NCBI RefSeq assembly: GCF_000372725.1
Contig: NW_005201392.1
Location: 1,183,184-1,247,183, forward strand
Length of the DNA stretch: 64,000 nt
Reading direction: 5' to 3'
Origin: Emiliania huxleyi CCMP1516
Taxonomy: Eukaryota
Translations under genes and position numbers: made by a program
The notes under the pieces: generated by a model
Told to the model about the DNA's origin: nothing
What the model saw: only the letters and a program-made list of their open reading frames with translations
Database searches by the model: none
Shown here: one piece after another, positions 28,993 to 63,330 of the stretch
Layout of the letters: the number at the start of each line of letters is the position of its first letter
Numbering within the stretch: the stretch's first letter is position 1

Positions 28993-31900
28993 ATGGCGCA
29001 GAAGAACGATGTCCGGCAGACGCTCCAAGCCTCCATCCTCGCGGCGCTGCGTGGCGTCACCGGCGAAGACCAGTTGACCGTCCTCCTGCTCGATGACACG
29101 ATGCGGCGGGTCGTCAGCCGCTGCTGCCGGCTCTCTGAGGTGATGGCGGACGCCAACATCACGCTGGTGGAGCACATCCTCGCGCCCGAGGCGAAGCGCG
29201 CGCCGCCGGCGATGGCGGCCCACCTCTCCGCCGTCTACCTCATCGCTCCGACCGAGTCGAGCGTCTTTGCGCTCGAGCAGGAGCTGACCACGCGCCGGCG
29301 GCTCTACGGAGGCAAGAGGCACATCCTGGTCTCCTCGGCGCTGCCGGGCCCGCTGCGGGGCACGCTGCGAGTCCTCTCCGCCGGCGGTGCGCTCGCTTCG
29401 CTCCGCGAGGGCGTCGCGGTGGAGGCGCTGGCGCTGCACGCCGGCGCGTTCTCACTCGACCGGCCGTCCGCGCTCCGCCGGCTGTACGGGCCTCCGCCCC
29501 CGCTCAACGAAGACAACATCGAGGCGCGGCTGCTGCAGGGCGAAGACGAGGCGGGCGGCGAGCGCGCGGCGGCCGTGTCTCATGCAGCCGAGCAGCTCGC
29601 CAAGCTCTGTGCCTTGCTCGGTGACGCGACTCCGTCGGTGCGGTGATAAGAGAGAAGGCGGATAGAAACCAAGAACACAACACGACGGTGGCGGGGGAGC
29701 CTACACGAGGGGTAGAGGGGCACGCCCGCGCAACTAGGCGACACAGGCACCCCAAATGGCGGCCGTGCCAGAGGGACACCGAGGCGAAGAGCAGCCCGCC
29801 GGCTAGTGGACGCCGGCGCGTTTAGGGTTGGGGGTGGTGGGCAGAGGAGGACGTCACGCTGGAGCCGCACACACACACACGAGCTCGACACTCATCCTCA
29901 TAGGTGCGGTACCGGGCGCGTGACCACCCGGTGTCCAAGGCGCTCGCCGCTGCTAAAGCTGCCTGCCTCCCTCCCTTCCCCTCTCCTGCCTACCCGCCTC
30001 CCTCTCCCTGCACGCACACACACGCACACACACGCACGCACGCACGCACGTAAACCCGCCTGAGCGCACGCACGTTTGTCCAAGGCGCTCGGCGTGGCTC
30101 TGGTGGCGGCGACGCCGGCAGCGCGCGCGGGAGCCGGAGGGGAGGCGTCGGGAGGGGCGGGCGGCGAGGCGGCGGCGGCGGGGCGCCGGAACGTGTCCGT
30201 GTTGCTCGTCGATCGCTCCTCCGACCTCTTCACGCCGCTGCTGCACGATTTTGGACTCGAGGCGCTCGCCGAGGCGCGGGGTGTGCTGCGGGAGGGTCGC
30301 TTCCGGTGCCGAGAGGAGCCGAGAGGAGCCGGGAGGAGCGGGGAGTAGAGAGGAGGGCTGCGGAAGGGGCCTTCGGGCGCCGCGTCTTCGGCTTCAGCCT
30401 CAGCAGCCGCGGCCGAGCCTGTGCGCGACCTCCCATTCTTGTCGACGTGTCTCTACTGTGGCTAGGCGCGACCCGACACGCAAGTCTGCGGCGGAGGAGA
30501 GGTCGCAGCATTCTTCTCCCACCGACCGCCGACAGCGAATCCTCTGTCCACAGGTCTGCGGCCAAGAACGGCCCGTCCCAGGTGCTGCTGGGGGGCGGAG
30601 GCGGCGACGAGGTCTGGGAGGGGATCCGCTTCCAGACGCTCGACACCGTGGAGGAAGCGCTGTTCGCGTCGACGCGCGCCTTCGTCGCCGAGAACAAGGC
30701 GGTGGAGGAGGCGCGGAGCCGCGTCGCGCCCTGACATCTCCTAGACATGTCCTAGACATTGCCTAGGCGGTGGAGGAGGCGCGGAGCCGCGTCGCGCGTG
30801 GCGAGGAGCTCTCGACCAAGGAGATGGTGCAGGTGAGCCGGCCGGATTCATCAATGATTAAATGGTTCTCCTCCCCCCCCTTTGAGTGCCGTGCGGCTCC
30901 TGTCGTCTAGACGTGGAGTCGCGAGGGCTGCCTGGCCCTTGCCCCACCACCTTGTGTGGTGTGGAGAAGTGTACCTCACCTCACCTTACCTGGTGCAGGT
31001 GAACCGGCGGCTCGCGTCGTTGTCGTACAAGCGGAAGGAGGAGGCACTCAAGGCCGCGCAGCAGCTACGAGGAGAGGACGGGGCTCTGCGCACCCCTCCC
31101 GCCCCTCACGCCTCGACTCGTTCACACCTCAGGTCGCGGACGAGGTGCGGGAGAGCGTCATGTCGCTGCTGATCGCCCCCGCGCCGCTGCCGACGATCGG
31201 AGGTCCGCAACTCCGCCCCGCCGCGGGGCATCAGCCGAGATCAGCCGAGATCGGCCGAGACTAGGCCGAGATCGGCCGAGATCAGCCGAGATCGGCCGAG
31301 ACTAGGCCGCCCTCCGCCCGCCGCGGAGGACACGCCGCTGTACAAGCTCATGATGCTCGAGCAGGATTTGGCCACTGGCCGCGACGGCGCCACCGGAGCA
31401 GCCATCAAGCAGGCACGATCTCGGCGGATCTCGGCGGATCTCGGCGGATCTCGGCGGATCTCGGCGGATCTCGGCGGGTCTGTCAGCAGGCCGAGACCCT
31501 CTCCCGCATCGTGGGTACCCTTGTCGACCCTCTCTCCGCGCCGCCGCCGAGCGCCCGCAGCACCACGCGCGCTTCGACCGACTCGGCGCCCTTTCCTCGC
31601 GCCCGAGATCGCCCGGAGATCGCCCGGAGATCGCCCGGAGATCGCCCGAGCTTAGGCGCGCGCGGCGTCCTTCTCTGCATCCGCGCCCGCGGCCGAGTCG
31701 ACCGGCGGCACGGAGGGGGCGGGGGCGGAGGCGGAGGCGCCGAGGGCCGCGGAGGTGGAGGTGCTCGAGCGGCAGCTGTGGGTGTGAGCAGCGTCTCTTC
31801 ACACCTCCCCGTTGGTGTGTCGACAGGCAGAGGAGGTGCTCGAGCGACAGCGGCTGCTGTTGCTCGCGTCGCTCGCGCTGCCGCTCAGCGACAGCGCCCG

Positions 31901-32845
31901 CCGCCCCATCACCCGCGCGTCGGCCCTCGACAGCGAGCAGCTCGAGGCGGCGTCTCGCGCGGCATCTCCTCCTGCCTCGCGAGTCGGGCGAGGTGAGCCG
32001 AGGTGAGCCCAGAGTAGGCCGTGTCGCGCGGCCTCTTCTGCCTCGGGGCGCGCCCCGGCCGGCGAGGCACTGGCGGGGCCCCGAAGCCTCCTCCGCCCCC
32101 CGGCACGGCGCTGCTCTGCCGCCACACCCCCGCGCTGGCGCCGCTGCTCCGCTCCGCGCTCGGAGGGGGGAGCGGCTTCACGTGGCCGCTGTCACGCCGC
32201 GTGCGGGGGTGCGCGTGAACGGCGTCTCTTCACACGCGGGTGCGCGTGTGTGCAGGTGGCTGCGCCGCCGCGTAAGAGAGCCGGGAGACCGCGGCGCGGC
32301 GGGCGGGTCGGCGCGGCCAGACTTGGCCGCAGGTAGGGTGGGCTCGTGGGCGCTGCGGGGCAAGGCTGGCTCCGACCGGCCCGGCAAGCCGCTGGTGCTC
32401 GTCTTTATGGTGGGCGGCGCGAGTCACGCGGAGGTGAGGAGTTGGAGTGGGCCTTGAAATGGCGTCCAACACTTGAAATGGCGGGGGGGGGGAGGGGGGG
32501 GGGGGAGGCTCTTGCCTGCTGTCGTGGAGACGCGAGGGGGAGGGCCCGAGTCCTTGGCCCCTCACGCGCGCGCGCGGAGACGGGTACCCGACCCCAACCC
32601 TCCCTCAGGTGCGGTGCGTGCACGAGGTTGCTGCGGCGACACACCACTGTGACCTGCTCTTCGGCGCGACGGCGCTGCTCACGCCGACGCAGTTTGCGCG
32701 CGAGCTGGTCTCCGCTGCGACCTGCGGCGCGCTGCCCTCTCACCGCTGAGCGGCGCCCCGTCACGCGTCGAGCTGTGAACAGGTCTCGATGGAGCGGATG
32801 CCTCCGCTGAGCGCCGCACCGGTGTCTGACGATGAGGCGGAGTGA
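28993..32845 (+). CDS. Sec1/Munc18 (SM) family protein (multi-exon)
   Basis: VLLLDDTMRRVVSRCCRLSEV..NITLVEHI, AVYLIAPTESSV, LLVDRSSDLFTPLLHDF, LEQDLATG, LVFMVGGASHAEVR and LFGATALLTPTQF are SM-family hallmarks. Confidence 0.88.
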
Positions 32846-33129
32846 GGGAGGGCGACGAGGCGGAGGGAGACAGCGCTCGCCGACCCTGGGAGAGGAAAGG
32901 ATGACAAGGCGAGGGGTAGTTAGTGTGGGACAACCATGGTTGCTCATCCACGTGCGCCGGGCCTTGCATTAAATGCACCGCGCTCCGCGGGGCTCCTCCT
33001 CACGCGCATACACACATGACACTCGGGCGGCCTTACTTACCATCCACCTACCTACCTGGGGTGCGTTTATGTGAACATCAACAACGCTGCCCGCAACATG
33101 CGTGTCGCGCGCACTCATATTCATGACCG

Positions 33130-33255
33130 GTCTCAATGTCCCACCCCCCTGCGCGCGGGCCTTCTAGGCCCGCGCGCCGCGGGTAGCCTCCCCCCCATCC
33201 GCATCCCCGGGGCGGGGGGGCCTCCAGGGCTCGCACCTCAACCTCTCACAGAGTA
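33130..33255. repeat. Dispersed repeat; copies at ~49420-49520 and partial at ~49650-49690
   Basis: cccacccccctgcgcgcgggccttctaggcccgcg...gggcctccagggctcgcacctc shared. Confidence 0.8.
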
Positions 33256-34079
33256 GGCTAAATACACTATATAGACCTCAACCTCTCACAGTACGCAGAG
33301 TAGGCTAAATACAGTGTGATCTGTGATCTGTAAGGGTCCGCCCGCAGGCGCATTTTGTATACCGAGGCGGTGTGCCCGGTGCCGAGCGCAGGCAGAGCCC
33401 ACAGGTCGGACCTCTTAAGACAGCGTTGTAAGATCCCTGGGCGAGGCGGCGAGGGTGGTGGAGGGGGGGGTCCGGCGGCGGAGCAACCACCTCCTCCCGG
33501 CGTGCCGGGAGGCAGGATGTCATCCCCCGTGATCCAGACCGCCCCGTTGGAGGTAGACCGCTCGTCTAGCCAATCAGCCTTAAGCGAGCGGTCTGGCCGT
33601 TGGAATGGCCGAGTTTGGTGTGGACTTGCGTCCTCGCATCGATCGTGGTTACAAGCACCACTCAGGGAGGCGGCTGTCCCCGCAGGCGAGCCTCAGTTAC
33701 AAGCCGCCTCCCCTCCTCACGGCGTCACGGGTTGTAGACGTGTGCCGCTGGGATCAAGCCAGTACGCCCGAGGGCGACGGTCCCCCGGTAGTAGACGTTG
33801 GCGCCGAGGAGGGAGGAGTCGCTGAAGGACGGGTAGTCGTCGATCATGCGGGGGGAGGAGGAGTCGGCGAGTAGCGGGGATGAGAAATGCCTGAGAGGGT
33901 GGGGAGGGAGGCGTGAGGCGCGAGGTGAGGGGGCGCGGGGCGCGGGGTGTGCGTGGGACGCGCGGCGTGAGGCGCAGGGCGTGAGGCGGGAGGGCGCGGG
34001 GCGCTCGAGTGAGGGCAGGGTGTGTTTTGTGTGTGTGTGTATGTGTGTGTGTATGTGTGTGTGTGTGTGTTGGTTTGTT

Positions 34080-34122
34080 TGAGAGAGAGATTTTTAGCAA
34101 TACCAAACAAATCTAACACTCA
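34080..34122. repeat. 43-bp AT-rich repeat, inverted copy at 60625-60666
   Basis: tgagtgttagatttgtttggtattgctaaaa(a)tctctctctca on opposite strands. Confidence 0.85.
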
Positions 34123-34324
34123 TGCGAGGGCTGGGCAGGGCAGGGCAGGGCGGCGGCGAGCGGCGAGCGGCGTCGGCGAGATCGGCGACGAAGAGAGGCG
34201 ATGGTGACGTACACGGCGGCAGTGTTCACGGCAGCAGCGCCGGTGGCGACCCCGCGCAGCGGCGGCAAATTGTTCCCACAGCAGGCTCCGTCACGGTGTC
34301 GCCTCTCAGGCCGGCCTCTCAGAG

Positions 34325-35779
34325 ATGTCCGAGCGACAGCTCCGTGCGACTGGCGTCCGCGTGCTGCGCCGGTGCCCTCTCGCTCACGGCGAGCTCGTCG
34401 TCTCCGCCGGCAGCGTGCTCGACTTTGGCGGCGGCACCGGCTGGCCACCATCATCCATCGCCATCGTGAATGCAGCAAACTGCGGTGCCGCACCACCACA
34501 GACGGCGAGTTCCCATCCGCCTTCGACCGTCTGAGCGCTGGCGATCCACTCTCAGGCGGGCTCGGCGGCGGCGGCGTAGATGGAGCCATCACCAGCGCCG
34601 GCGGAGCAGCGCTCGCCGCCGACCGGCGGGCACTTCCCATCCTGCCTGGCACTCGCTTGGCGAGGAGTCCTAGATGCTCGCATCCGCTATCAGGAGCACT
34701 ATTGCTAAAGACGTCGTACTGATCATTCAACCCGCTATTCCTGGCTGCGTATGACGTAGTCAACAGATCGCGCCATTTCGCCACGCGCAGGACCGGATCG
34801 CCACGGGCGGCGCCGTGCTGACCGGGCCAAGGAGCTGCGGCTCGCTGCAGGCCGAGCTGCGAGCATGCGAGTCGTCTCTTCACGGCTGTGCGTCTGTCCG
34901 ATAGAAGCTACGGCTCGCTGTACGCCGGCAATGTCATCCACGCCGTCGGCCCAAACTACCGCGTGCTCGTCGGCTCGGGGCGGTCGGCGGAGGAGGGCGA
35001 CAAGCTGCTGCGCGACGCCTACCGCACCTCGATGGCCGCGGCAGCCGCTGCCAGCGTCGCGCACCTGGGCTTCTCTCTGCTGTCCGCGGGCATCTTCCGC
35101 GGCCCGCGCTCGCTGAGCCACGTGCTTAGGCGCGGCTGCTCATTTCGGCGGGTCTCGGCTCACTTCGGCTCACCTCGGCTCACCTCGGCTCACCTCGGCT
35201 CACCTCCGCTGCGTGCCCAGGGTTGGGATGGAGGCGGTGGCGGAGGGGGCATACCCGGGGCTGGCGGAGGTGCACCTCGTCGCCTTTCTGGAGTCGGAGC
35301 AGCGGGAGCTGCTCGCGCTCCTCGCCGAGCTTAGGGCTGGAGGCGGCGAGGCTGGGGGAGGCGAGGCTGGCGGCAGCGAGGCTGGCGGGAGCGAGGCTGG
35401 GGGAGGCGAGGCTGGCGGCAGCGATGCTGGCGGCAGCGATGCTGGCGGCGATGCTGGCGGCGATGCTGGAGGCGGCGCTGGAGGCGCCTTCTCACCGGAC
35501 GAGGTTCGAAGAGCCGGCCAGCTGCATGTTGTCCGCCACGAGTGTGCCCAGCGCCTCTTCACACTTGCAGGCATGAACAGGTGCTGGCGGACCGAGCCAA
35601 CCACGTCTCCGCGTCGGACGCGGCGGGCAGGCTCCCGCCTCTGCTGGTGGCCACTCTGGAGACAGTCGACACCGCCGCCGCCGCCAACGCCGCCAACGCT
35701 ACCGCCAATGCCGCCGCCACCAAAGACGCCTCCTCTGCCGGCTCCGCTGCCTCGCCCTCCGCCGCTGCCTCCACCTCCG

Positions 35780-35816
<37 letters not shown>

Positions 35817-36838
35817 GCGGCCGCAACGCAGCAACAGGCGCGCACACGCCTCCGCTGCCAGCGCGAGGGCGGCGGTTTTGGCGGCGGCGGAGGCGTCGGA
35901 GGAGGCGGCGGAGGAGGCGGCGCAGGAAGCGGCGAGCGCGGAGGGGGAGGGGGGCGGAGAGGGCGACGGTGCGGCGGAGGCGGAGCAGGCATGGCGTTTG
36001 GCTGACGCGCCGTACGCCTGGGCCGCAGCTCGGCTGCATTGCTTGTGGGCCGCGTCTCTCCACAGGTTGAGCTCTGCGGGTAGGTGTACCTGGGAGCACC
36101 TCGACCACACCGCGGACGTGCAGCTGCACGCGTGGGGCACTCGGCTGGAGGAGGCGTTCGAGCAGTGCGCGCTCGCGATGTTCGCACTGATGACGGAGCT
36201 CGAGACAGTCGGTGTTTGGCTCCCTCCCTCCCCCCCACCCCACCCCCCCACCCCTCTCTCTACGCCGGTCGATGCCGTGCGAGTGCGAGCCGCGTCTCTT
36301 CACAGCTGCTCCTGTGAACAGGCTCGTGCTCGCCGTGACGGAGGTGTGAGTGAGAGCAGCGTCTCTTCACGCCTCGAGGTGTGGGCAGGCGTGGGGCTGC
36401 CGGCAGCACCGCCGGTCGAGGTGTGCGCCCAAGGGCACGACCTGCACTCGCTCCTCTTCCAATTCCTCGACGAGTGCGCGCTCCTCGCTCCGCGGGGCGC
36501 GCGGGGGTGAGCGGCGTCTCTTCACGCCTCGAGCCGTGAACAGGTGGCTCTTCCGCTTCACGGGCGGCGGCGGGTTCGTGCCGCGGCGGCTTCGCGTGGT
36601 GTCGTTGGATCGCGCCGCCTTCCGCGTGCGCTCTCTCGCCGTTGGAGAGTGCTTCGAGCTTGGCCGGCACCCGCAAGGCACAGCGGCCGCCGTCCGGTCG
36701 GTTGGGCGGGGGAGGCGCGTCTCTCTTCACACCTCCGGCCTTGTGGTAGGGACCGAGGTCAAGGCGATTACCTACTCCGCGATGCGCATCACAGAGACGC
36801 CCACGCGAGCGGATCTTCTCGTCATCGTCGACATCTAG
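34325..36838 (+). CDS. Macrodomain (MacroD-type) - archease fusion protein (multi-exon)
   Basis: AIVNAANCGGLGGGGVDGAI, VIHAVGPNY, LLSAGIF (macro); WEHLDHTADVQLHAWGTRLEEAF, GHDLHSLLFQFLDEWLF, GTEVKAITYSAM..VIVDI* (archease); joined in frame by GT-AG intron 35504-35580. Confidence 0.85.
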
Positions 36839-37099
36839 TCAGTTTTTCTCACCACGCGGTCTTTCTGTTTTTTTTGTCCTCGCCCCGCGCCGCCGCAGCG
36901 CGCCGCCTGTCGCTGTCCATGCTTTTACGTTTTAGCTTTTTCTCTAAAGCCGTACCTAATAAAAGACAAATCCTTACATCCAGATTTTTTATTTATTTTT
37001 GCGCCAGTCCCGAACAAACAACTCTCTCTCCCAGTCCCGTGCCTAGTGTCGTGCGAGGGAGTCTTGGAGCACTTGGAGTGCACGGTCATGAACCTCACA

Positions 37100-39480: not shown

Positions 39481-39575
39481 CTGCGAGCGTGGAGGCCCTG
39501 GGGTTCACAACGACGCTGGTTGTCCTGCCCGACTGCGTCGTCACCGCGTGGATAGGAGCCTGCTTTTCTGGGGCG

Positions 39576-43132: not shown

Positions 43133-43280
43133 GGCTGAGACTGCATGAACGTTGTGCTGGTGCGTCACTTGTGCCCCACAGTACTTATGTTCATGTCGAG
43201 GGGGCAGGGGCCAGGACGAGCGTGACGGCGGGCATGTCCGGGCGCGTGGGCGCGTTGATTCATTCGGTACAAAACCACTA

Positions 43281-48781: not shown

Positions 48782-49750
48782 CGGCGCACAGCGCCATATA
48801 AGGACGTATTTTCTTCTCAATAACAAGGCTGTGAACTCTATCCTGGGACCCAGCGCTGACTTCTGACTGTCGTTGCTGTCTCTCTCCCTTCTCGACTGTC
48901 TGTGCTTGTGCGTCTTGGGTCCGGGGTTGTTTGTGTTTTTCTGTGAATGAACTATCGGTACTCGGCCCCCGCCCGACGACCACCAGGCGCTAGACGTTTT
49001 TGGAGCCTGGCAGCGGTCTATCGGCACTCGTGAGTTCGACCCTGCGAGCAGAGAGTACAACCTCCTCAGCTCGCTGCTCCGCCGCGCGCTCCCTCGCCCA
49101 GCCGTCTTGCGTTGGGCGGGCCCGCGCGCCCGGGCCTTCCGCCCTGGGAGGCAGAAGACCTTGGCGACTACGACCTCCTCACTCAACCCCTCGTCTGCAG
49201 CGTGCCGCAAGCAGGTCCTCCTGGAGGAGGGCTGGCCTCGCGGCGAGTTGCCTTCCAAGGTGGGGTTGCGCGAGCATATGCAGGCTCCTCGCGCTGCGCT
49301 GGGGTATAAGGTGGGCCTGGCCTACCATGGCAATGCCGCTGAGACCGGTGAGTACTTGTACGACCCGAGCTACGCGCGACATCGGACAAGTAATCCACAC
49401 GCTGAACAGAATGTTCAATCTCAATTTCCCACCCCCCTGCGCGCGGGCCTTCTAGGCCCGCGGGTAGTCTCCCCCCATCCCCAGGGCCTCCAGGGCTCGC
49501 ACCTCTCAAAACCTCTCATAGACCAGCGCACAGCGCCATAGGACGTATTTTCTTGTCATAATCTTGTCAATAACAAGGTCTGTGAACTCTTGAGCACTTG
49601 AGCACTGGATAGGGTCGATTCCGCATGGTACGGGACCCCCGGTGTGAACAGGGCCTCCAGGGCTCGCAGTCGCACCTCAACCTCTCACAGCCGACCAGCG
49701 CACAGCGCCATAGGAGGTATTTTCTTCTCAATAACAAGGCTGTGAACTTG
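48782..49750. repeat. Repeat cluster: gcgcacagcgccata...gtattttcttctcaataacaaggctgtgaact at ~48782-48840, 49525-49590 and 49695-49750, enclosing a degenerate coding-like fragment
   Basis: Three near-identical copies seen directly. Confidence 0.8.
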
Positions 49751-49846
49751 GGGTGTCGCTAGTAAATTCTTGAAGTTTCCGCCCTCGTGGCATGTTGGAT
49801 TTCCAAAAGTCCGCCCCTGCGTGTGTCGGCCGCTCACGTCGACCGC

Positions 49847-51491
49847 TCACGTCGACTCTCCGGCTGCGTACCGGCGCATCCACGCTAGGATGTCCCCCGC
49901 GATGGTCGAGCGCAGTGGCTCCGGCTCGCAGAGGAGCGCGTGCAGCGCGTCGTACCGCTTCAGCGTGCGGTCAGCCGCGGGCGTCGCCGCCACCTCGCAG
50001 AGCCTCTCGGCCGCCTCGCGCGCCGCCTCGCTCAGCACCAGCTCGCGGTCGGCGAGGAGGCAGAAGAAGGGGCAGGCCAGGCCGGGGAGGGTCGCCTCAC
50101 AGGCGGCGCCTGTGCGGAGATGCGCCCGGCCAAGAGGCTTTAGCCGAGATGAGCCGGCCCGCGCTCTCACTCCCGGGCAAAGCGGGCCGGGAGCCGGGAG
50201 ACCGGCCCGAAGCAGGGAGAGCGCGCGGAGGGAGGAAGGGAGAGGGGGGAGGGAGGGAGAAGAGAGCGCGCGGACCGAGCGAGACGCACGCGCTCGCGCT
50301 GCCGACGCGCAGCGCCCCCTGCAGGCGGGCGGGAGAGAGCTTAGCCGATTCGCGGGGTGACATCCCACCGGAGGGAACCCGAGCTGTGTATGCGCGCGTC
50401 TGTGCGCGTGTGGGACAGACGTTGTTGTCCTCTGCGCGGGGCTTCCCGCGGGGACCAAAGACGGACCGCCGCCGCCGAGAGTGAGTGAGCCGGGTCCGGG
50501 ATAGGAGGGGCGGCCAGGATCTAAATCTCTCCCGAGATCGCACAACCCGCCCACAACCCGCCTCGCGTGCCTGCCCCGCAGCTGCTGCCCCGTGTATGTT
50601 CCGCGTGTGCCCCGCGCTAGGACGTGTGCAAGACTGACTGACTGCCGGGGTCGAGCCTCGCCTTGTAGGAGAGCGACCACATCTCGACCATATCTCGGCT
50701 GTATCTCGGCTGCATCTCGGCTGCATCTCGGCTGTATCTCGCCTTGTAGGAGAGGTGGTCCGCGTCGACCCGCTTGATGATGGCCTCGTCCGAGTACTGC
50801 TTTGCATTGTCGGTCGCGGACGACGGGATGAGCGGCAGCCGGCAGAGGGGCGTGTACCTGTGCACAGAGGCGCGGGGTGTGAAGAGACGCTGCTCTCACG
50901 ACAGGAGCGCATGCCCGCAGAGAGGAGGCGGGTACGACAGGGCGGCGAGGAGGTATGCGGCGGCGGCCGACGCCGGAGGCGCGAGCATCGGCGCAAGGAG
51001 GACGAGACCGCTCACACCGTCGAGCCTTTCGCGACAGAGCGAGTCGGTAGTTGAGGAATGAGACGCCTGGCGTGCATCGGGCTCGGACGGTGTCTGTTGT
51101 GAGCTCACCGCTGCGCGACGCGAAAGGCAATGGCGCCGCCCATCGAGCTGCCGGCGAGGAAGAGCGGCAGGCCCGGCTTCAGCCGCCGTGCCTCTCTTGC
51201 GAACGCCTCGCCGTCCTCCTCGAGAGCCTCGCTCGAGAGCAGGAAGCCGCGCAGGCCGTCGCTCTCGCCGTGGCCCGGCATGTCGGGCGAGCACACGGCG
51301 AACCCACCAGCGGAGAGCACCTCCGCCGCGAGCGAAGTCGACGGAAAGCGAGCGTGCGAGCCCATGCCGTGGAACAAAACCACCAGGCCGACGGCGGCCG
51401 TGGGCGGCTCCCAATGCCAGAGTGCGCAGCGCACGCCCGACGGCGCGTCGAGAGCGCTGCGCGTTGGAGTGCTAGATGTCAAGACTACCAT
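49847..51491 (-). CDS. Monoacylglycerol lipase / lysophospholipase-like alpha/beta hydrolase (multi-exon)
   Basis: VVLFHGMGSH, DMPGHGESDGLRG, PLFLAGSSMGG, GLVLLAPML, YDALHALLCEP..DILAWM. Confidence 0.88.
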
Positions 51492-51813: not shown

Positions 51814-52502
51814 CTGGAACACGGCACATTTAGCGGGCTCGAGCGGCACACAGTGGCTGCCGGGGTGTGCCGAGGCGGGGGGCTGGGAAGGCGGTAAGCC
51901 TTCGTCGCCCCCTGCTTGCAGCTCCGCGGCGATGAGGCCAAGAGGTCCTGGCGGTGCGGCGAAACACACACCGCTTTCAGACCCGCCCCCTTCACACACC
52001 GCCTCCCTGGCTTGGCGCCCGGAAAGAAAAAAAAGGAACCGCCTCTCTCATCGGCACACGTGTCGAGCACCAAGATGCAAGAAAATAGTGTGCGACACGC
52101 ACGGGTGTCGGTGGTAGCGAGAGAGTGAGCCGCGCGGCGCGCGGTGGGAGTCAGTTGCTTGTTACAGATAGTACAAGAATAGACCGTCGGAACACCAAAA
52201 GAGCGCGGATACTACCGCAATCCCGAAATAAGACGCCGTTCTGGCGTCGACAGGAATAATATAGGTGCTATCGTGGATAGAGTAATGCTCATTAAAGCGT
52301 GCTCCGCTCTCGCGCCCAGGCGCGCTCATGGCGCGATATTACGTCCCATTTGGGACGGTGTGAACTCGCCTGTCTGGCGCCATGGCTCGTTCATCATTGA
52401 GAGGTCTGCCCCTCGCTGGGTGTCACTCTAAAGAAGGCGATGCGCCGGCAGGTGCGAGTCTCTCGCCCCTGCGCGCCTCGGCCAGCCCGCGGCGGATCGC
52501 AA

Positions 52503-54260: not shown

Positions 54261-55215
54261 TCTGCCCGGCCCGCGCCCGACGAGGCTTATTCGCGTTGGA
54301 GGGCTGGTCCCAAAATCAGGATGAAACGAAATGCATTACTAGGCTCGCCATCGTCATGGTGCAGGCTTGACCCCAGTTGGCCACGGTGAGTAGGTGTGAA
54401 TGGGGGAGTTCGATATTCACAGTCGTTTACACTGAGGGAGCAATGGCTATTATTATTCGAGTTGCTTTGCCGTCATCATCCATCCAGGGGGCGGCAAACT
54501 ACCAATCAATCAATCAATCAATGACTGGCGGCTCAAGTCAATCAATTATTAATATTGCTGGTGTCCGCCGTGCGAGGCGCCGTTCCACTTCAGCGCCGCC
54601 GGTCTGGCGCGGTTTCCTATTTGCAATTATTGCACGCCGCGCCGCCGTCGGGCGAACTTATCGGCAGCACGACTTTGCATTTTGGCGCGGTTTTCGCGAT
54701 GTCTCTCATAGCTCTGCCTCTGGGTCGCAATGGGCGATCCCAGGCGGGAGCAGAGGCCAGTGGCCTCGATCCCTCGATTCTCTGATGGGCTGGGCCTACA
54801 CTCCGATCGAGTTCATGTTATTCCGAGGGGAGAGACAGACAGACGGATCGATCGCAGGGCAGGCAGGCAGGTCTGTCTGCTTGCTAGGGGCGCTGCGAGA
54901 GTCCGCGGCTTCCTTCCACTCACTGACTGCACCCCGGACGGAGATATCTCCAGGGCCCGTCGCCCCCGGGGCCCCACGCCATGTGACACCCCATAGGAGC
55001 AGCTTGGCTTTCGCAGCCGGTGCCTTTCTGGTGTCAGAAGCGGGACGCAACTCGGGGTGGTCGCAGGCACAAGTCTTTTGGCCAATTTACCGATTGAGGG
55101 TGGTGCGCGCTGGCGCGCGAGCTTTCCCAGAGCAACAGTACAAACGAGGGCGACGCCCGCGCGTGCGGTTGCCGCGGCCGCCTCCCGGCTGCCAGCCCCG
55201 CTCTTGGGCGGCATT

Positions 55216-56709
55216 ATGTCGTTCCTGTTGGTCAATCACTGCAGCGCCACCAATCCAATATCAGCGGCCTGTGCGGACCAAGACCCGCACCTCCGCTTTG
55301 CCTTTGGTGGGAGCGCCGACTTTCGAGGCCGCCACAACGCGCTGTATAACTTCCTCTCCGCGCCAGGCCTCGCCCTCAACATCAAGACGGAGGACTCGAC
55401 CTTCAAGATGCACGGCGGGAAACTCACTGTCGACGGCTCCTTCATGACCGAGGCGCACCTGACTGCAGTCAGTTTGCCCAAAAGGAAGTTTGCCAACGTG
55501 TCCTTCTGGGCGGCCGAGCTGAACGAGTTTAACACCGGCTGGCGCGTCGTCAATGGTACCTGCGGGGGACACTACTTCAAGCTCGGGCAGGGAGGCCGCA
55601 AGACGTGCGAGGAGATGTCGTTCGTCGTCGGCTACTCGACCGCCACGTGGACCACCCGCGACTGGGTCATCCAAGTGCACGGCAACCACGTCAACGACCG
55701 TGTCTCGGGCCCAGAGCACCGGCTCGACATTTCGCTGAGCGCCAAGGGCAGTGCGACCGCAGCAAGCCTGCCGCACGGGCTGGTGGGCCAGTCCTTTGCG
55801 ACCGTCGGCCTGCCCCGCCTCGGCCGGAAAGACGTCTACCCCGCCTCGGGCCACATCCGAACCGAGTCGATGGCCGAGGGCGCCATCGATGGAGAGGCGC
55901 ATATGTACGAGGTCTCATCGGCCTTCGAAACCCGCTTTGCCTTCTCCCGCTTCGCCACGGTCCCCGCCAGTGCGTCTTCGCTTCTCCCTCATACGGACGC
56001 CCCGGACGCCGCCCTCGCCCCAGCCCCCACGGCCGCGTTTGAGACTCCCGGGCGGCGTCTGGCGGACGAGTGCACTGACTGTGTCGTGATCAGCGACATC
56101 ACAAACGCAGATCTGGAGGCCACACACACCTATCTGTGCACGTTAGCGCAAATGGGAAGCAACTGCCCGGCGGATCCAAGGACCTTATCCCAGGACTGGC
56201 ACCCACCCCTGGACGCAAGCATCGTGAGTGTGACAGCAGTCAAGCTGCAGGCCTACTGGCGTGAGAACTTCGTACAAGGTCTCGGAGTGTATACGCTCGA
56301 TCAGCTCGAGGGGCGTGCGGTGTCTACCGGCGCCGGGCAGTTCTCCTACAACGGCGGATCATCCACGTCCGCGCACTTTTGGGTGGCAGGTGCAATAGAC
56401 GACGTGCAACAAAAGCTTTTGCTCGCCAAGGTGGTCGCGTTTGTGGACTCCAGCAACTCTCTGTACCTGGGCGGGGCTTCCCCTTCTAAATCGGTGAGTT
56501 GCGACGCGCTTTCGGTGGAGTGCAACAACACCAACATCAACCAGGTCGACCTCGTCGAGTTCTATGACAACTGCGACACTCACGGCGGCGACTGCAATGT
56601 TGCGGTCTACCACGGCGGCACAGCATGGCCAGATATTGACAACACCGCATACCAAGGAAGCATCGGCGTCGCTAAGATCTCGCACAGCCTGGGCGTGTCG
56701 CTGTGCTGA
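55216..56709 (+). CDS. Secreted protein: N-terminal DPH/VWD-like domain, RRL motif, unique Cys-containing C-terminal domain (start may lie upstream)
   Basis: DPHLRFAFGGSADFRG, SFWAAEL, HRLDIS, PHGLVGQSFA, AEGAI, FAFSRF, GRRLADEC. Confidence 0.85.
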   Translation: MSFLLVNHCSATNPISAACADQDPHLRFAFGGSADFRGRHNALYNFLSAPGLALNIKTEDSTFKMHGGKLTVDGSFMTEAHLTAVSLPKRKFANVSFWAAELNEFNTGWRVVNGTCGGHYFKLGQGGRKTCEEMSFVVGYSTATWTTRDWVIQVHGNHVNDRVSGPEHRLDISLSAKGSATAASLPHGLVGQSFATVGLPRLGRKDVYPASGHIRTESMAEGAIDGEAHMYEVSSAFETRFAFSRFATVPASASSLLPHTDAPDAALAPAPTAAFETPGRRLADECTDCVVISDITNADLEATHTYLCTLAQMGSNCPADPRTLSQDWHPPLDASIVSVTAVKLQAYWRENFVQGLGVYTLDQLEGRAVSTGAGQFSYNGGSSTSAHFWVAGAIDDVQQKLLLAKVVAFVDSSNSLYLGGASPSKSVSCDALSVECNNTNINQVDLVEFYDNCDTHGGDCNVAVYHGGTAWPDIDNTAYQGSIGVAKISHSLGVSLC

Positions 56710-56954
56710 GCTCTCCTGCGGTTGCCGCTGCCTTTACGTCGGATGTGGTCTCCTGGTCTCTCCATCCACAGATCACAGTTCGGCGCGGATCTGAGGGAAA
56801 GGACCCAGGAAGACCCAGGAAGGAGGATGAATGATAAACGGAGCCCCCATACTCAGGAGGGGGGGAGGAACACGGCACACAGACCGGACGCGCAGGCGCA
56901 CGGCGATTTCTTCTTGTGAGTCAGGGGTGGTTACGCTCGTGCCAACGCTTGATC

Positions 56955-57354
56955 CGAGAGCGCTGCGCGTTGGAGTGCGATGTCGCGCCTGGCGCCGCCA
57001 TCGGGCGTCAGGCTTAGATAGGTAGGGGATCTCGCGCACCAATCAAAAAGCCCTACCTACCTACCTATCCCCAGGCCGCGCAGCGAAAATAGGGGGGTAC
57101 CTACGTGTTGCAGGGCGGCCCGCCTCCCTCTGGGGCGGTCAAAACTGGACCTACCTACCTATTGCATAGGGTGTCACGGGGGTCAACAGACCCCCTATCT
57201 GGCTAGGAGCCGGAACCCAGCCCAGCCAGCCGAGCGGCCCTTTCACGCCGCCGCAATCCGAATTTTCCCACGCACCAAATGTGGTGAAGCCTCTGGGGGG
57301 GGTCGGACCCCCCCCCCCCCAGCATGTGGTGTGAGTAGAAGTGCGCCCTCCTCC
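56955..57354. repeat. Direct repeat copy 2 (copy 1 at 51449-51813), immediately upstream of Ariadne
   Basis: Near-identical to 51449-51813. Confidence 0.93.
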
Positions 57355-57414
57355 AGGCGCACGGCGATTTCTTATTGTGAGACCGCCTCTCAGGCTGGAC
57401 CCGGCCGCCTGGAG

Positions 57415-59057
57415 ATGAGCGAGGCAGGCAGCTCTGATGGGTACGACGAGATGTCCTGCTCCCAGGAGGACACCTCGGATCCCGAGGAGGAGATCTTCGA
57501 CTCGGAGCCCATTCGGCAGCAGACGCAGACCTTCACCGTGCTCGACGCCTCCGAGTGCCTCGCGCTCGCGCAGAAGGAGGTCGATGAGGTGAGGGAGCTA
57601 TTATGCTGCAGCGAGGAGGTGGCCAGCATCCTGATGCGCCAGTTCCGCTGGAACCGCGAGAAGCTCACCGAAGGCGAGGAAGCGCCAGCCGCGGAGGCGT
57701 GCCTTCTAGCCTTGCGCTCACAGCGGCCTGCCACCCGCGCGCAGAGTACCTTTGCGACGCAGACAAGGTACTCAAGCGCGCGGGCATCCACCAGGGCGAG
57801 AACCTCGAGATCGTCCACGCCGACGGCGCTGTGGCCGTCGGCGGCACGTCTCAGCCGCGCGGGTCGCTGCCGGACGTGCAGTGCTTGATATGCTACGAGA
57901 CGTCGGCCGACTACTCTGCGCTCGGCTGCGGGCACCAGTTTTGCAACACGTGCTACACCACCTTCCTGGCCCACAAGATCACCGACGAGGGCTACAACTG
58001 CGTCTTTGCTACGTGCCCAAAGCCCGAGGTGTGCCCAGCCCCGCTCAGCCGAGGCCCGCCTGCGCGCGCGCTCCCGCAGCCCGCGCTCTCTGCTGCCCGC
58101 ACGGCTCGCGCGCGCTCTGCTGACCGCCGGCGTGGCGGCGCGGCGGCAGTGCTCGCTGGTGGTCTCGGAGCGGCTGGTGCACTCGCTCGCGCTGCCGGCC
58201 GACAAGCGCGCCATCTTTGACAAGGCGCGGCGCATCGAGCGGTCTTACGTCGACGACAACCCAAACCTCAAGTGGTGCACGGCTGCCGGGTGCGGCAACG
58301 CGATCCGCGCGCCAAAGGGGCACCTCGGCGTCAAGTGCTCGTGCGGGCAGCGCTTCTGCTTCAAGTGCAACGACGAGGACCACGCGCCGTGCTCGTGCGA
58401 GGAGCTGGCCAAGTGGATGGTCAAGTGCCGCGACGACTCGGAGACGTACAACTGGCTGATGTCCAACACAAAGGCGTGCCCCAAGTGCGCCACCTCGATC
58501 GAGAAGAATGGCGGCTGCAACCACATGACGTGCAAGAACTCCTCTTGCAAGTTTGAGTTTTGCTGGGTCTGCCTCGGCCCGTGGAAGGACCACTCGGGCT
58601 CGACTACCTAGATGCAGAACACGTCTCCTTGTCTCCCAACTCGCGCTCGAGAGGACATGGATTCCACTGTAAAGCGTTGTCGGCCGTATTCACTGTATTC
58701 GCCTCCCTCGTACTCACGCGGTGCTCTGAATACGCTGCACAACACCGTATTCCCGCCCTGAAGTTGGCGTATCCACCGCGCAGGCTCGTACTACTCGTGC
58801 AACCGGTACGACCCGGAAAAGGAGAAGGAGAACCCCGAGGCCAAGAAGAAGGACTCGTCGCGCGCCGCCCTCGAGCGGTACCTGCACTACTACACCCGCT
58901 TCACAAACCACCACAACTCGCTCAAGTTTGAGGTCGAGGCGAGGGCAAAGATGGAGGAGAAGATCAAGGAGATGGAGAAGCAGGGCGACAAGACGTGCGC
59001 GCGCCGCGTCGCCGCCCCGCGGCAGCCGCTCCGCCCCCCCCACCACCACCACCACCG

Positions 59058-59100
<43 letters not shown>

Positions 59101-59548
59101 CACCCTCCACGCCCCTCCGCCTCGCGCACAGGTGGATCGACTGCACCTACCTGAAGGATGCAAACGAGGCGCTGTACGAGTGCCGGTACGCACTGCAGTA
59201 CACGTGCGTCCTTCCCCCTCCCCCCCCCGGCCCCGGCCCCGGCCCCTGCCCGGGCACCGCTCCGAACCCCCCTTCTCGCCGCGCAGGTACGTCTACGCCT
59301 TCTACTTGCCGCAGGGCGGCAACTTCCGCACGCACTTTGAGATGAACCAGACCGAGCTCGAGCAGCAGACAGAGCAGCTGTCCGAGATGCTCGAGAAGGA
59401 CGTGTCGGAGATCCACCGCGCAGAGGTGGTGCACTGCTTCACGATGGCAAAGACGAGGCTCACCAACTTGCTCGAGCTCGTCGCCGTCCGCGGATCGGGC
59501 TCCGCGACCGACACCTCGGGCGGAGCTGGCAGCAGCAGCGACCCGTGA
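57415..59548 (+). CDS. ARI: Ariadne-family RBR E3 ubiquitin ligase (multi-exon)
   Basis: Acidic N-terminus, LMRQFRWNREKL, RING1 CLIC..CGHQFCNTC, IBR LKWC..CSCGQRFCFKC..HAPCSC, RING2 NTKACPKC..IEKNGGCNHMTC..FEFCWVC, Ariadne domain LERYLHYYTRF..H. Confidence 0.96.
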
Positions 59549-59882
59549 CCGCGGGGAGGACCCGCGGCGGCAGGGCAGGCGCTGAATGCATGGGGCGTGC
59601 GTCGAGGGGCCGGCGCCTCGCCGGCTGCTCGTCCTCGTCCTCGCGCCCCTCACAGTACTCTGACACCGTCTGACAAAACCATGGAGAGAGAGCTGAGAGA
59701 GAGAGAGCCGAGAGGGAGCAGAGAGAGTTCGTCCAATGAGACCGAGAGTCTGGAGAGAGGGATATGTACGAGAGTCGCGGTTGAAAAAAATCTAGGCGCA
59801 AAGCGCCGTATTCAAACACGACCAACGCTCCGAAGCGCAGCCCCCCGTTTCAGCAGAGCACCGACGCACGAACACCCACAAA

Positions 59883-60177
59883 CTATCCTTTCAGCGCTTT
59901 GAGCGCGGCCACTTCTTGCTCGAGTGCCTTTACCCGCTTCTGCATCGCAGCGACGGAGCTGACGGTCTCGCTGCCGAGCGCTTCGATCCGCGCGTCTACT
60001 GCTCCCGCCGCAACGTAGATGTCCTGGTGCACGCGGTAGTAGCCAAAAGCGAGCGCGACGACACCGCCCGTGAGGAAGCTCTGGAAGTTTTGGCGGAGCT
60101 GCGGAGGCGGGGGAGGGGCGGGCTCGGGCGGGGCTGCAAGAAAACATGCCGCTACGCAGCGAGCGCACCATCGCCAT
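59883..60177 (-). CDS. Small (74 aa) single-TM + coiled-coil protein; exons 60177-60169 and 60098-59883
   Basis: MAM|LRQNFQSFLTGGVVALAFGYYRVHQD...MQKRVKALEQEVAALK via GT-AG intron 60099-60168. Confidence 0.65.
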
Positions 60178-60289
60178 CGCTCGGAGCGAGCAGCCCCAGG
60201 CTCGGCGTCCGACTCGCTGAGAAAAAGAATTGTGCGCGTCGTGCGCACTGGCGCTCCCCACGCTAGTGAGGAGGAGGAGAGCCCCACCT

Positions 60290-60495
60290 GTGCCCCTGGT
60301 CGTCCTTCCAAAATCCTGCTCGTGCAGGTGTGGACCCGGTCCTCCTCCCCCATCCCTCGTTTGGGTTGAATCTCTTCTTTCTTTCTCTCTCTCTTTGGCG
60401 CTCCCCACTCCCGTTCCCCTGTGTCCCTGATCGTCCTTCCGAAATCCTGCTCGTGCAGGTGGGGAGCCTGTCCTCCTCCCATCCCTCGTTTGGCA
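60290..60495. repeat. Two ~70-bp related units ending in cccatccctcgtttgg, matching the 3'-flank motif of the LINE remnant (ccaaacgagggatggg, ~37555)
   Basis: tcgtccttcc(a/g)aaatcctgctcgtgcaggtg recurs at ~60300 and ~60431. Confidence 0.7.
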
Positions 60496-61211
60496 TGCCT
60501 GTTTTCTTTCTTTTCTGCCACGAACACAGAAAAACAGAAAAACCGCGCCATTCGCTCTCACCTGGCAACCCTGTCTGCACGTCTCGCGCGCGCGTGAACA
60601 GGGCTCCAGGCCCCAAATGACGTGTGAGTGTTAGATTTGTTTGGTATTGCTAAAATCTCTCTCTCAGAAAAAGAACTAAAAAAATGGAGAACGAAGTGAC
60701 TAAAACAACACTGGGCACGGGACTATCGCGCGGTGTTGCAACGGGGGTTGCAACAACGACGCGTGACGCGCCGTTTCGCGTTTGGATTTTTGGAATTGTC
60801 GCTGACGCGGCACGCGGGCGGCGGGGTGAGACTGAGATCGTGTATGACGCGCGAGAGACACGAGATAGACGTGTCGAGACTCGCGAGTGACGCTGACGGG
60901 CGCGCGGCGGTGGATCGTGGTCTGAGAGAGAACATAGCTCGTCGGGTCTGTCATTTTTTATTGGCATGAGAGCCATTCGTTGACACGCACCGTCTGTCTC
61001 GCTCCTACCAGCTGCAATCCGAGTGTCACTGCTCGCTGGCTCTCGCTCTCGCGCCCTCCCGGCTGGTGCCTAGCGCGGCACGGAGCCTCCCAGAGACGCC
61101 TACATGTCCTCGAGTGCACGCGCACCGCCTGGATCTGGCGAGCTAGGGTTGGCCGCGGGCGGCTCGTGTAGTGACAAGGTCGGGAGGCGTGAGAGGAGAG
61201 GGCCTGCGTGA

Positions 61212-63330
61212 TCACTCATCATCCTCTGGCATCAGAAACCTCTGCCAGTCCTCGCGGTAGCACTCGCCGCCGCGGATGGGGTCGAAGCCGCACTTGTAAA
61301 AGGTGCCGTCGGCCGAGACGACGAGGAAGGAGTTTGTGTTCTCCGGAGCAAAGGCGCAGATCGTGCGGGTCAGCGCGCGCTCGGAGCCTAGAGAGGCTCG
61401 CCGCCGTGAGCACACCGTCCGCACTGGGGGAGGGGGAAGACGTCGCGGCGGCGCGCGTGGGGGAGGGCGGGGCGGTGAGGGCAAGCGCGAAGAGGAAGGG
61501 CCGCGAGAAGGGAGGGGGGGAGTGCGGCTCAGTGGAGGGGCGGGAGGAGAGGGCGGGGCGGGGCGGGGCGGGGTGGTTGGGGCGGGGCGGGGTGGGCCGG
61601 GATGGGGCGAGGTGGTTGGGAGGGGTGGGGTGGGGCGGGGTTGTTGGGGCGGGGCGGGGCGGGGAGCGCCTGGCATCCGGAACTGCGCAAAGCTCCACTG
61701 GGACTGGATGTAGGTTGGCACGAGCGACTTTGGCAGCAGCGAGCCGAGGAAGGAGAGGCTCGACCTGCTCGGGAGAGGGGGGGGGGGGGGATGGGGGAAA
61801 GGGGGGGGGGGGGGGAGATGTCGCCGAGGAAGGGGAGGCTCGACCGAGGGTTGTCCGGCGTGTCGGACGGGTAGGCGAGCGTAGTGGCGGGCACCGGCGG
61901 GGTGAGCTCGGGCGCCTGGTCGGCGTCGCCCTCCTGCAGCCGTGTATGGCGGCGTGGTGTGAGAGACAGCCGAGAGACAGCCGAGAGACAGCCGAGAGAC
62001 AGCCGAGAGACAGTCGAGAGATGCAGCCGAGAGACGGCCGCCCTCCTGCAGCTTGAAGACGTGTATGGTGCCGTGGTCCGAGCCGACGAGCAGCCAGCTC
62101 GAGTCGGCGTGGAAGTTCATGCACTGTTCACAGCTGCAGGTGTGAAGAGACGCCGTTCACAGCTCCGGAGGGACCACGCCGGTGTACTTGGATGGCGGCG
62201 GGCTCGGCGCCACGTCGCAGCTCCATCAGCCGCTGCCCCGAGCGGGTGTCCCAGACCCGCACCAGCGTGCCTATGCGGGACGTGTCGCGGACGTGTCCGA
62301 GACCGGAAGGGGACGCGTGCCCGCACCCCCCGCGCCAGCGTGCCTCGCTCCGACGCCGTGGCGAGCCGCGTCCCGTCCGGGTTGAGGGCGATGCAGGAGA
62401 GCGAGGCCTATGATGTTACACCAGAGTGTGTGATGTCGCATTGCATACGAGCTGAGGGCGATGCAGGAGAGCGACGCCTCGTGCGCGGAGATGAGGGTCG
62501 TGCGAGTGATGTCGAAGAGCTCGGCGCGCACGTGACCCTTTTGCAGCCCGCAGCAGGCGATGACGCACGCGCGCGAGTCCGCGCAGAGCGAGCAGAGCCC
62601 GCGCGGGTTCGAGATTGTCTCAATCGTGTGCAGCAGGTTCAGGTCTGCAAAGATGTGCACGGAGGTATAGCCGAGGTGAGGTATAGCCGAGGTGCAGCCG
62701 AGATATGGTCGCCCTCCTGCAAAGTTGTACACGTAGATCCGGTACTCGAGGACAACCACGACTCGCTCGCGGCTCATGCGGACCGCCTTGACCTCCGACC
62801 GGAAGGAGAGCTCGCCTAGAGAAGCCAGGGCTCGGGATCGAGTCCGCCTCCGCCTCCTTGACCCCCCACACCAGGCACGGCTCGCCGATGCAGCGGTTTT
62901 GGTGGTCGTCCCAGATCATGACCTTGTTGGGCGGGTAGCGCGGGTTGCGGCCGCCGCCGACGAGGGCGAGGATGTTGCAGCGGAAGAGCATCTCGACGAT
63001 CCCAATCCCGCCGTTGGTAAAGTCTGCGGCACGACCGGCCAGCTCACGTCGCGCGTGCGGCTCCGGTGTGTGTGGATCCGAGGAGGAACGCGTGAGGCGG
63101 ATAACTGTGAGGCGCGCACCTCTGCGGTAGGTCTGTCGGAAGGGGTCGCAGTTGAAGATGCGGAAGCCCGAGTCCGTCCCGCACGCGAAGCAGCCATTGT
63201 CCTGGTTGAAGCCGACGTATAGCACTGCGGGGCCGCAGCAAGCGTCAGGCAAGCACATGGGCGGCAACACGGGCGCGCGCGGTGGCGGCGGCTCACATTC
63301 GGAACACTGTTGAGAGTCGAGGCGCAGCAT
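61212..63330 (-). CDS. ATG18: PROPPIN / ATG18-WIPI family beta-propeller (WIPI3/4-like, LRRG motif; multi-exon)
   Basis: [83 protein letters not shown]. Confidence 0.95.

What the first reader, a model, noticed from the sequence alone, without database searches (positions are those of the whole stretch)
31791..62153. Conserved intronic motif GCGTCTCTTCAC followed by a variable hairpin just before the 3' AG
Seen: about ten copies, always on the sense strand of an inferred intron and ~17-25 nt before an AG. Sec1 has them at 31791 and 32222; macro-archease at 34873, 35551, 36292, 36359, 36514 and 36717; the lipase at 50879 (minus); ATG18 at 62142 (minus). Degenerate copies occur at ~32755 and ~24714. 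In most copies the spacer differs in sequence but still pairs with the motif end: ttcacg/cgtgaa, ttcacag/ctgtgaa, cacacgcg/cgcgtgtg, cacacc/ggtgtg. Several end in TGAACAG. Inference: either an extended branch-point (TTCAC) element with a structure that presents the acceptor, or the 3' end of an introner-like mobile intron family spread across unrelated genes.
Basis: partly seen in the sequence, partly recalled or inferred. Interest (0 to 1): 0.75.

Follow-up and report, generated by a model that had tools for sequence, protein, structure and literature searches.

The report
Algal introns made by duplicate-and-fill insertion
In the bloom-forming alga Emiliania huxleyi, many unrelated introns end in the same ~40-base piece and begin with a ~25-base copy of the exon that follows, which likely marks new introns being made by insertions that duplicate their target site.

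Summary
The motif is real: 7 exact copies against 0.01 expected. Twelve copies lie on the sense strand of four genes, 18-24 nt before an AG. RNA contigs or a transcript-derived protein support 8 of those acceptors; one AG (36321) is not used. The window is E. huxleyi. The hairpin is not conserved: no compensatory change in 77 copies, and real copies fold worse than column-shuffled ones. The unit is 62-74 nt, not frame-preserving, with GC/GT/GA donors taken from the copy, and copy and module age together. Two loci hold inverted copies of a neighbouring module flanked by 24-26-nt repeats. Other fillers show the same layout. Best reading: intron gain by templated insertion at staggered breaks, the module supplying branch site and acceptor, the duplication the donor. 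Enzyme, template and strain-level presence/absence are untested.

The parts
62124..62163 (-). Near-perfect ~40-nt module: 11-nt direct repeat at both ends, core 12-mer (62142-62153), quasi-palindrome, ends in the acceptor AG
   Evidence: (column majority of 63 metagenome copies)
62124..62187 (-). 64-nt GT-AG intron of ATG18/PROPPIN with the module but NO exon duplication; followed by T (counter-example)
31749..31826 (+). Sec1 intron with motif 31791-31802; 5' part copies the next exon (17/20); donor not fixed (31749, 31752 or 31755 all fit)
   Evidence: acceptor only by record arithmetic
32182..32255 (+). Sec1 74-nt GT-AG intron with motif 32222-32233 and decayed exon-start duplication
   Evidence: homology to P0037, arithmetic, score p=0.002
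32753..32782 (+). Degenerate module at the end of the last Sec1 intron; donor not fixed
   Evidence: RNA pieces start at 32782 in X11, X12, X13
34832..34904 (+). 73-nt GA-AG intron in the macro-domain region; motif 34872-34883; 16/20 copy of next exon start
   Evidence: RNA piece starts at 34903; intron total 275 = 275 required; open macro frame
35551..35580 (+). Module at the end of an intron; donor not determined, no clear duplication
   Evidence: RNA piece starts at 35579 in X13
36012..36083 (+).
   Evidence: joint in 4 runs; p=0.048
36212..36388 (+). 177-nt GT-AG intron holding two modules 67 nt apart (36292, 36359); only the second AG is used
36474..36543 (+). 70-nt GT-AG intron with motif 36514-36525 and decayed duplication
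   Evidence: joint in 4 runs
36678..36749 (+). 72-nt GC-AG intron with motif 36719-36730; no significant duplication
   Evidence: joint in 4 runs
50858..50935 (-). Predicted 78-nt GT-AG intron of the lipase (Hydrolase_4) with motif 50879-50890, in-frame stop, ~25-nt decayed duplication
   Evidence: frame only
30699..30766 (+). 68-nt GC-AG Sec1 intron without the module: 33-nt perfect repeat across the junctions plus a repeat filler (same layout, other filler)
   Evidence: joint in X11, X12, X13, absent from DNA run X5
62408..62477 (-). 70-nt GC-AG ATG18 intron without the module, ~25-nt exon-start duplication
61765..61844 (-). 80-nt GT-AG ATG18 intron without the module, 22-nt exon-start duplication

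Best explanation
The motif is the core of a ~40-nt intron-end module that likely enters exons by templated insertion at staggered DNA breaks, duplicating ~25 nt of the target so that the copy would supply the splice donor and the module the branch site and acceptor. Steps. (1) Shown: the layout exon | copy of next exon start (median 25 nt) + module (median 41 nt) ending in AG | exon, 62-74 nt in all, and splicing of such units in RNA. (2) Shown by sequence: cutting from the first G of the copy to the AG restores the reading frame exactly. (3) Inferred: copy and module arrive in one event. (4) Inferred: the template is an existing copy, so introns seed introns; synthesis is by an end-joining or template-switching polymerase, since two inserts are inverted copies of a neighbour and one spans an intron-exon junction with short homologies at both ends. 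(5) Inferred: selection keeps only inserts that splice out (G at the start of the copy, AG at the end, length above ~62 nt), which gives the sense bias and GC/GA donors. The hairpin is the inherited, decaying palindrome of the founder, not a selected structure. The two direct repeats then let units expand in tandem.
For: 43 of 83 testable module sites match the first 20 nt of the next exon at 15/20 or better upstream, against 8 of 821 control pairings; 47 of the 49 sites at 14/20 or better sit at 62-74 nt. Lengths mod 3 are 13/12/12; donors GC 19, GT 13, GA 4, GG 1 of 37. Duplication median 25 (12-36), insert median 41 (37-58) at 31 non-tandem sites. Removing the unit gives the best coding join at 27 of 39 sites, 13 expected; downstream DNA scores as sense coding at 64 of 84, with a method that is right on 109 of 131 known pieces. 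Duplication identity and module divergence correlate, rho -0.44, p 3.5e-4, n 61. L082 and L005 hold inverted 44- and 40-nt copies of a neighbouring module inside coding frames, flanked by perfect 24- and 26-nt repeats. 14 of 26 window introns, 9 of 18 without the module, exceed the 95% null for exon-start duplication; repeat periods in the algal loci peak at 60-79 nt, 75 of 111. ATG18 introns 1, 2 and 10 lack long duplications and match insertions seen in other haptophyte gene calls, which read through most of the other positions. Young sites carry 12 different spacers among 14, so there are many source copies.
Against: 40 of 83 sites lack a clear duplication; the ATG18 intron has a pristine module, no duplication and T after the AG; 3 of 8 scored module introns in the window are not above the null, and exact repeats in the window alone show no 60-79 peak, 5 of 36. 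Same-locus modules are not more alike overall than cross-locus ones (25 pairs; p 0.66, 0.21, 0.046), so local copying is shown only by cases. No intron-less allele was seen (DNA run X5 lacks the listed joints). L082 and L005 are metagenome contigs without RNA support. The metagenome set was selected by the pattern and by my filter (39 of 133 hits dropped). No enzyme or template was identified.
Confidence: 0.6

Rival explanations
1. Same intron gain, but by target-primed reverse transcription: a retroelement enzyme nicks at G|G sites and copies the 3' ~40 nt of an intron-end RNA (or a tiny SINE-like RNA), leaving a long target-site duplication.
For: Exact 3' end at AG|G in 92 of 94 copies, ragged 5' end with short homologies or extra bases: the pattern known from LINE insertions (own knowledge). 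Strong sense bias.
Against: No poly(A) or tail; no longer parent element among the upstream sequences; L005 copies across an intron-exon junction and L082 drops the final CAG, so the template is not an excised intron end; many unrelated quasi-palindromic fillers share the layout.
Confidence: 0.2
2. Old introns remodelled: a spliced-mRNA or cDNA template partly overwrites the 5' end of an existing intron with the next exon's start (aborted intron loss), and the module spreads among intron ends by gene conversion because it is a good branch/acceptor.
For: The copy starts exactly at the splice junction; the ATG18 intron has module without duplication; L088 seems to carry a whole unit from the L063 site.
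Against: Does not predict that copy and module age together, nor inverted inserts with flanking repeats inside coding frames; other haptophyte gene calls read through most ATG18 positions that show duplications (records of unknown splicing status).
Confidence: 0.12
3. One reading: an extended branch-point element with a selected hairpin that presents the acceptor, evolved convergently or kept by selection.
For: TTCAC positions are the most conserved when copies are anchored on the 3' arm (26-30 of 30 against 15-23 for positions 2-4); a YTVAY pentamer is mildly enriched near other acceptors, 8 of 18 against 4.2, p 0.03.
Against: No compensatory change at the stem pairs in 77 copies; one pair is paired less often than shuffled (13 against 20); mean fold energy -5.38 against -5.85 for column shuffles, all 30 shuffles lower. 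A 40-nt shared sequence with matching age cannot be convergence.
Confidence: 0.05
4. A non-autonomous DNA transposon (classical MITE-type introner) whose transposase makes the duplication.
For: [quoted passage not shown]
Against: No terminal inverted repeats (the ends are direct repeats); duplication length varies from 12 to 36 nt and the left end is ragged, unlike the fixed 2-8 nt figures in the papers read.
Confidence: 0.03

Closest known systems
Introner elements (Gozashti et al. 2022, bioRxiv 10.1101/2022.06.06.494994 / PMC9860276; 2025, PMC12130899)
   Same: A repeated sequence that makes introns; the 'carry 3', co-opt 5' from the target-site duplication' class; GC and GA donors; marine protist. 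Both papers' tables list E. huxleyi CCMP1516 families (2022: five families of 19-308 copies; 2025: three of 5, 6 and 45 copies, mechanism unknown or LTR). The 2025 fam24 (5 copies, 70 nt, 'co-opt 5' carry 3'', '10bp terminal direct repeats') may be part of this family; its sequence was not in the files I could search.
   Different: Their definition needs similarity up to both intron ends; here only the 3' ~40 nt is shared and the 5' ~25 nt is site-specific. Duplication is ~25 nt and variable, not 2-8 nt; no inverted termini; sources are many and some are local.
Intron gain at staggered double-strand breaks in Daphnia pulex (PMC4202315) and Drosophila (PMC2809761, PMC3296678)
   Same: Insert flanked by a direct repeat of the adjacent exon end; AT-rich and repetitive fillers.
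   Different: Daphnia repeats are 4-12 bp and the source of most inserts is unknown; here the repeat is ~25 nt, forms a third of the intron, supplies the donor, and one filler recurs at many loci.
Tandem genomic duplication model of intron gain (AG|G inside a duplicated segment; listed in PMC3296678)
   Same: Splicing between two copies restores the exon; L005 and L082 would use an AG|G inside the repeat.
   Different: A foreign ~40-nt filler lies between the copies and usually brings the acceptor.
Polymerase-theta-type templated insertions (own knowledge; only search listings seen)
   Same: Short inserts copied from nearby DNA in either orientation with short homologies at the junctions.
   Different: Not tested; no polymerase was looked for, and the constant ~25 + ~41 nt sizes may come from selection.

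Membership tests
Introner (sequence-similar, insertion-derived introns) | Family of introns at unrelated positions sharing sequence | tested here: met
   86 distinct sites in 78 loci plus 12 window copies
Introner (sequence-similar, insertion-derived introns) | Similarity reaches near both splice boundaries | tested here: not met
   Columns upstream of about -11 are not conserved; 5' parts match each other across loci in one pair only
Introner (sequence-similar, insertion-derived introns) | Spliced out of mRNA | tested here: met
   (8 of 12 acceptors directly; one not used)
Introner (sequence-similar, insertion-derived introns) | Absent at the orthologous site in relatives or other alleles | tested here: inconclusive
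   Only protein-level hints from gene calls of unknown splicing status; DNA run X5 shows no intron-less joint among those listed
MITE-type DNA transposon introner | Terminal inverted repeats | tested here: not met
   Ends are 11-nt direct repeats; the inverted repeat is internal
MITE-type DNA transposon introner | Short target-site duplication of fixed length | tested here: not met
   12-36 nt, median 25
Non-LTR retroposon / SINE | Fixed 3' end, ragged 5' end, variable long duplication | tested here: met
Non-LTR retroposon / SINE | Tail, tRNA/5S-derived head or partner LINE 3' end | tested here: inconclusive
   No tail seen; no Rfam match in 78 kb; no whole genome to search for a partner
Break-repair intron gain | Direct repeat of adjacent exon flanking a filler | tested here: met
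Break-repair intron gain | Dependence on an end-joining pathway | not testable with these tools
   needs experiments
Structured branch-point element | Compensatory base changes in the stem | tested here: not met
Structured branch-point element | Branch maps to the A of TTCAC; pairing with this species' U2 | not testable with these tools
   only contigs available; no U2 gene in the sequence held

The most novel reading that the evidence does not exclude
E. huxleyi builds a large share of its introns without any transposon: a repair process fills staggered breaks with ~40 nt copied from other intron ends while duplicating ~25 nt of exon, so a self-seeding branch/acceptor module spreads as a gene-less, enzyme-less 'half-introner'; this would explain at once the ~70-nt intron size, the majority of GC and GA donors and the repeat-filled introns of this species.
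Probability: 0.4. Interest if true: 0.88.

Novelty: new variant of a known kind. Interest (0 to 1): 0.74.

Why it matters
Where new spliceosomal introns come from is a long-open question, and sources are rarely visible. Here each young intron keeps its own record: the duplicated target, the junctions and sometimes the neighbouring template, with a built-in clock (divergence between the two copies). Pipelines that need end-to-end similarity would miss this family. It offers a mechanistic alternative to the 'high GC content' explanation of E. huxleyi's 56-65% GC donors (PMC4028052) and can be tested now with existing genomes and strains. It also gives a practical rule for fixing this species' gene models: the donor is the first G of the upstream copy.

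Tried and rejected
No whole genome is held, so no genome-wide count. Hairpin as a selected structure: rejected. 24714 and 30226 as copies: rejected. Viral source: 2 hits in viral contigs, one site twice, with no 3' arm, treated as chance. Rfam: 0 matches in 78 kb. A 29-nt tandem array as master template: none found among pairs closer than 110 nt in 111 kb. Whole-intron transposition: 5' parts had one cross-locus match (L063/L088, possibly an assembly chimera) and none for the ATG18 intron. General local copying: not significant (the filter removed the L059 pair, L082 and L005). The lipase search used a wrong frame and was uninformative. The first codon-model run had training genes in wrong frames and was replaced; searches used a mis-indexed Sec1 donor, corrected; Sec1 donors at 31791 and 32753 stay ambiguous (23 solutions). 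Archease search returned only unspliced or partial gene calls. The joint table was cut at 15 rows, so Sec1 module joints were not shown directly. Earlier findings of the scan: nothing returned.
Full report
OBSERVATION. The 12-mer occurs 7 times exactly in the window against 0.01 expected; with two mismatches there are 18 hits against 8.45, of which 11 are true copies, and a degenerate twelfth lies at 32753. All are on the sense strand of Sec1, macro/archease, Hydrolase_4 and PROPPIN genes, 18-24 nt before an AG. An ATG18 exon is 100% identical to EMIHUDRAFT_426412 of Emiliania huxleyi CCMP1516, so the window is this species or an extremely close relative. RNA contigs give introns 36012-36083, 36212-36388, 36474-36543 and 36678-36749 (4 runs, 3 studies) and pieces that begin at the AG of 32782, 34904 and 35580; a transcript-derived protein places 62187-62124. 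The AG at 36321 is not used; 24714 is not a copy.

THE MODULE. A scan of metagenome contigs (8 of 64 parts read, about 1000 stretches estimated) gave 121 loci with 133 hits. I kept 94 (span 29-36, last 10 nt within 2 mismatches of the common end, GC at least 0.57) and dropped 39; 86 distinct sites remained. The species of these contigs was not determined; they share the window's GC level and repeat types. Column counts show a ~40-nt module from about 11 nt upstream of the 12-mer to the AG, represented almost perfectly by 62163-62124 (-). It has an 11-nt direct repeat at both ends and an internal quasi-palindrome. The next base is G in 92 of 94 hits (15 of 39 among dropped hits). In the flanks 27 further copies occur against 1.5 expected, 24 on the seed's strand. 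Downstream DNA scores as sense coding at 64 of 84 sites; the method is right on 109 of 131 known pieces.

THE HAIRPIN IS NOT SELECTED. In 77 copies with an 18-nt spacer the outer stem pairs are no more often paired than after shuffling one side, one pair is paired less often (13 against 20), and only the two innermost, loop-sized pairs reach p about 0.04. Real copies fold at -5.38 kcal/mol against -5.85 for column-shuffled ones. Among the 12 window copies one has z below -2. Copies are related, so these are not independent tests, but the direction is against compensation. The T.CAC core is the most conserved part when copies are found by the 3' arm alone, as expected of a branch site; this is inference.

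THE DUPLICATION. At 43 of 83 testable sites the first 20 nt after the AG recur upstream at 15/20 or better (control 8 of 821), and 47 of 49 sites at 14/20 or better have the copy starting 62-74 nt before the end of the AG. At 37 strong sites the unit lengths are flat mod 3 and begin GC 19, GT 13, GA 4, GG 1 (a starting G was required in that script). At the 31 non-tandem ones the duplication is 12-36 nt (median 25) and the rest 37-58 nt (median 41). Removing the unit gives the best coding join at 27 of 39 sites. The better the duplication, the closer the module to the majority form (rho -0.44, n 61). Even the youngest sites differ at 0.28 per site in the spacer, so there are many sources. Some sites are expanded to tandem units, which fits the 67-nt pair at 36292/36359. 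In the window the copies are older: 5 of 8 scored module introns exceed the null; the GA donor at 34832 predicted from the register fits the RNA record exactly (275 = 275; that donor was chosen from the register, then checked).

IT IS NOT ONLY THIS FILLER. Nine of 18 window introns without the module also exceed the null, among them 30699-30766 with a 33-nt perfect repeat across an RNA joint. In the algal loci exact repeats of 14 nt or more peak at periods of 60-79 nt (75 of 111); without module-bearing ones 32 of 96 fall at 65-74; the fillers are AT-rich palindromic runs, GCCGAGAT-type repeats and others. The window alone shows no such peak (5 of 36). ATG18 introns 1, 2 and 10 lack long duplications and coincide with insertions in other haptophyte gene calls, which read through most of positions 3-9; whether those records were spliced is unknown, so this is a hint.

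HOW IT LIKELY WORKS. L082 holds, about 15 nt from a module intron, an inverted 44-nt copy of that same variant between perfect 24-nt repeats; L005 holds an inverted 40-nt copy spanning a neighbour's intron-exon junction between 26-nt repeats, with 3-4 nt homologies at both ends. Both lie in coding frames, break them, and could be removed as GC-AG introns of 68 and 66 nt (no RNA test). This points to templated insertion at a staggered break from DNA or unspliced RNA, followed by selection for inserts that splice out. Against: same-locus copies are not more alike overall; the ATG18 intron has a pristine module and no duplication; no empty allele was seen. Odds: repair-type templated insertion 0.6, target-primed reverse transcription 0.2, remodelling of old introns 0.12, selected hairpin 0.05, MITE 0.03. 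That the module arrives by insertion with a duplication, whatever the enzyme, is about 0.8.

WHAT IS KNOWN. Gozashti 2022 (parts 1-2 of 5 of the preprint read; supplement rows) and 2025 (passages; supplement rows) define introners by similarity to both ends, report duplications of a few bases, and list small E. huxleyi families, one annotated 70 nt, 'co-opt 5' carry 3'', '10bp terminal direct repeats', 5 copies. A search of the 14 supplement files of the 2025 paper for the core motif found nothing; figures and alignments held as pictures could not be seen, so overlap with that family is open. Daphnia neointrons show 4-12-bp exon repeats (passages); Drosophila papers (passages) and a review (passages) describe the same short repeats. 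Feldmesser 2014 reports 56-65% GC donors and ascribes them to GC content (passages); Skeffington 2023 has nothing on this in its main text (passages). Nine searches found no description of ~25-nt exon duplications or of this module in E. huxleyi; the library lacks most subscription papers, and I did not see the 2013 genome paper or its supplement.

VERDICT. Real, spliced, not a structured splice element, and not a classical introner: a new variant of intron gain by insertion with a long target-site duplication, with a recurring acceptor module as one of several fillers. Interest 0.74.

Noticed in passing
L082:374-465 and L005:417-508: Inverted copies of a neighbouring module inserted in coding frames with 24- and 26-nt flanking repeats; predicted GC-AG introns.
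   Followed up: partly
L022, L119, L120, L023, L115: Nearly pure A/T palindromic fillers of 35-55 nt between 16-40-nt direct repeats in a ~65-70% GC genome; several in one locus.
   Followed up: partly
L063 and L088: A 66-nt duplication+module unit of one site appears inside the intron of another; cross-locus copying or assembly chimera.
   Followed up: partly
window 34325-36838 (+): Macro domain and archease in one apparent reading frame joined by a long Ala-rich linker; no single RNA contig listed spans both, so the fusion is unproven.
   Followed up: partly
window 7371-7453 (+): 17-nt repeat with 66-nt period and a filler ending like the module's 3' arm; probably another such intron.
   Followed up: no
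window 35504-35580 and 31749-36749: Ten of the twelve module copies lie within 5 kb, seven in the macro/archease region; clustering suggests local spread but was not tested genome-wide.
   Followed up: partly
window 33100-34120, 49400-49800, 60500-60660: High-copy intergenic repeat with shared ends and very high depth in DNA run X5; looks like a transposon remnant family.
   Followed up: no
window 24760-25160: Long array of 10-11-nt CTCGGCTGCA-type repeats inside a minus-strand gene, probably an expanded intron filler.
   Followed up: no
table 5c (run X5): Contigs with module-copy-module layouts for sites that are single in L090 and L097, hinting that tandem expansion differs between strains.
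   Followed up: no
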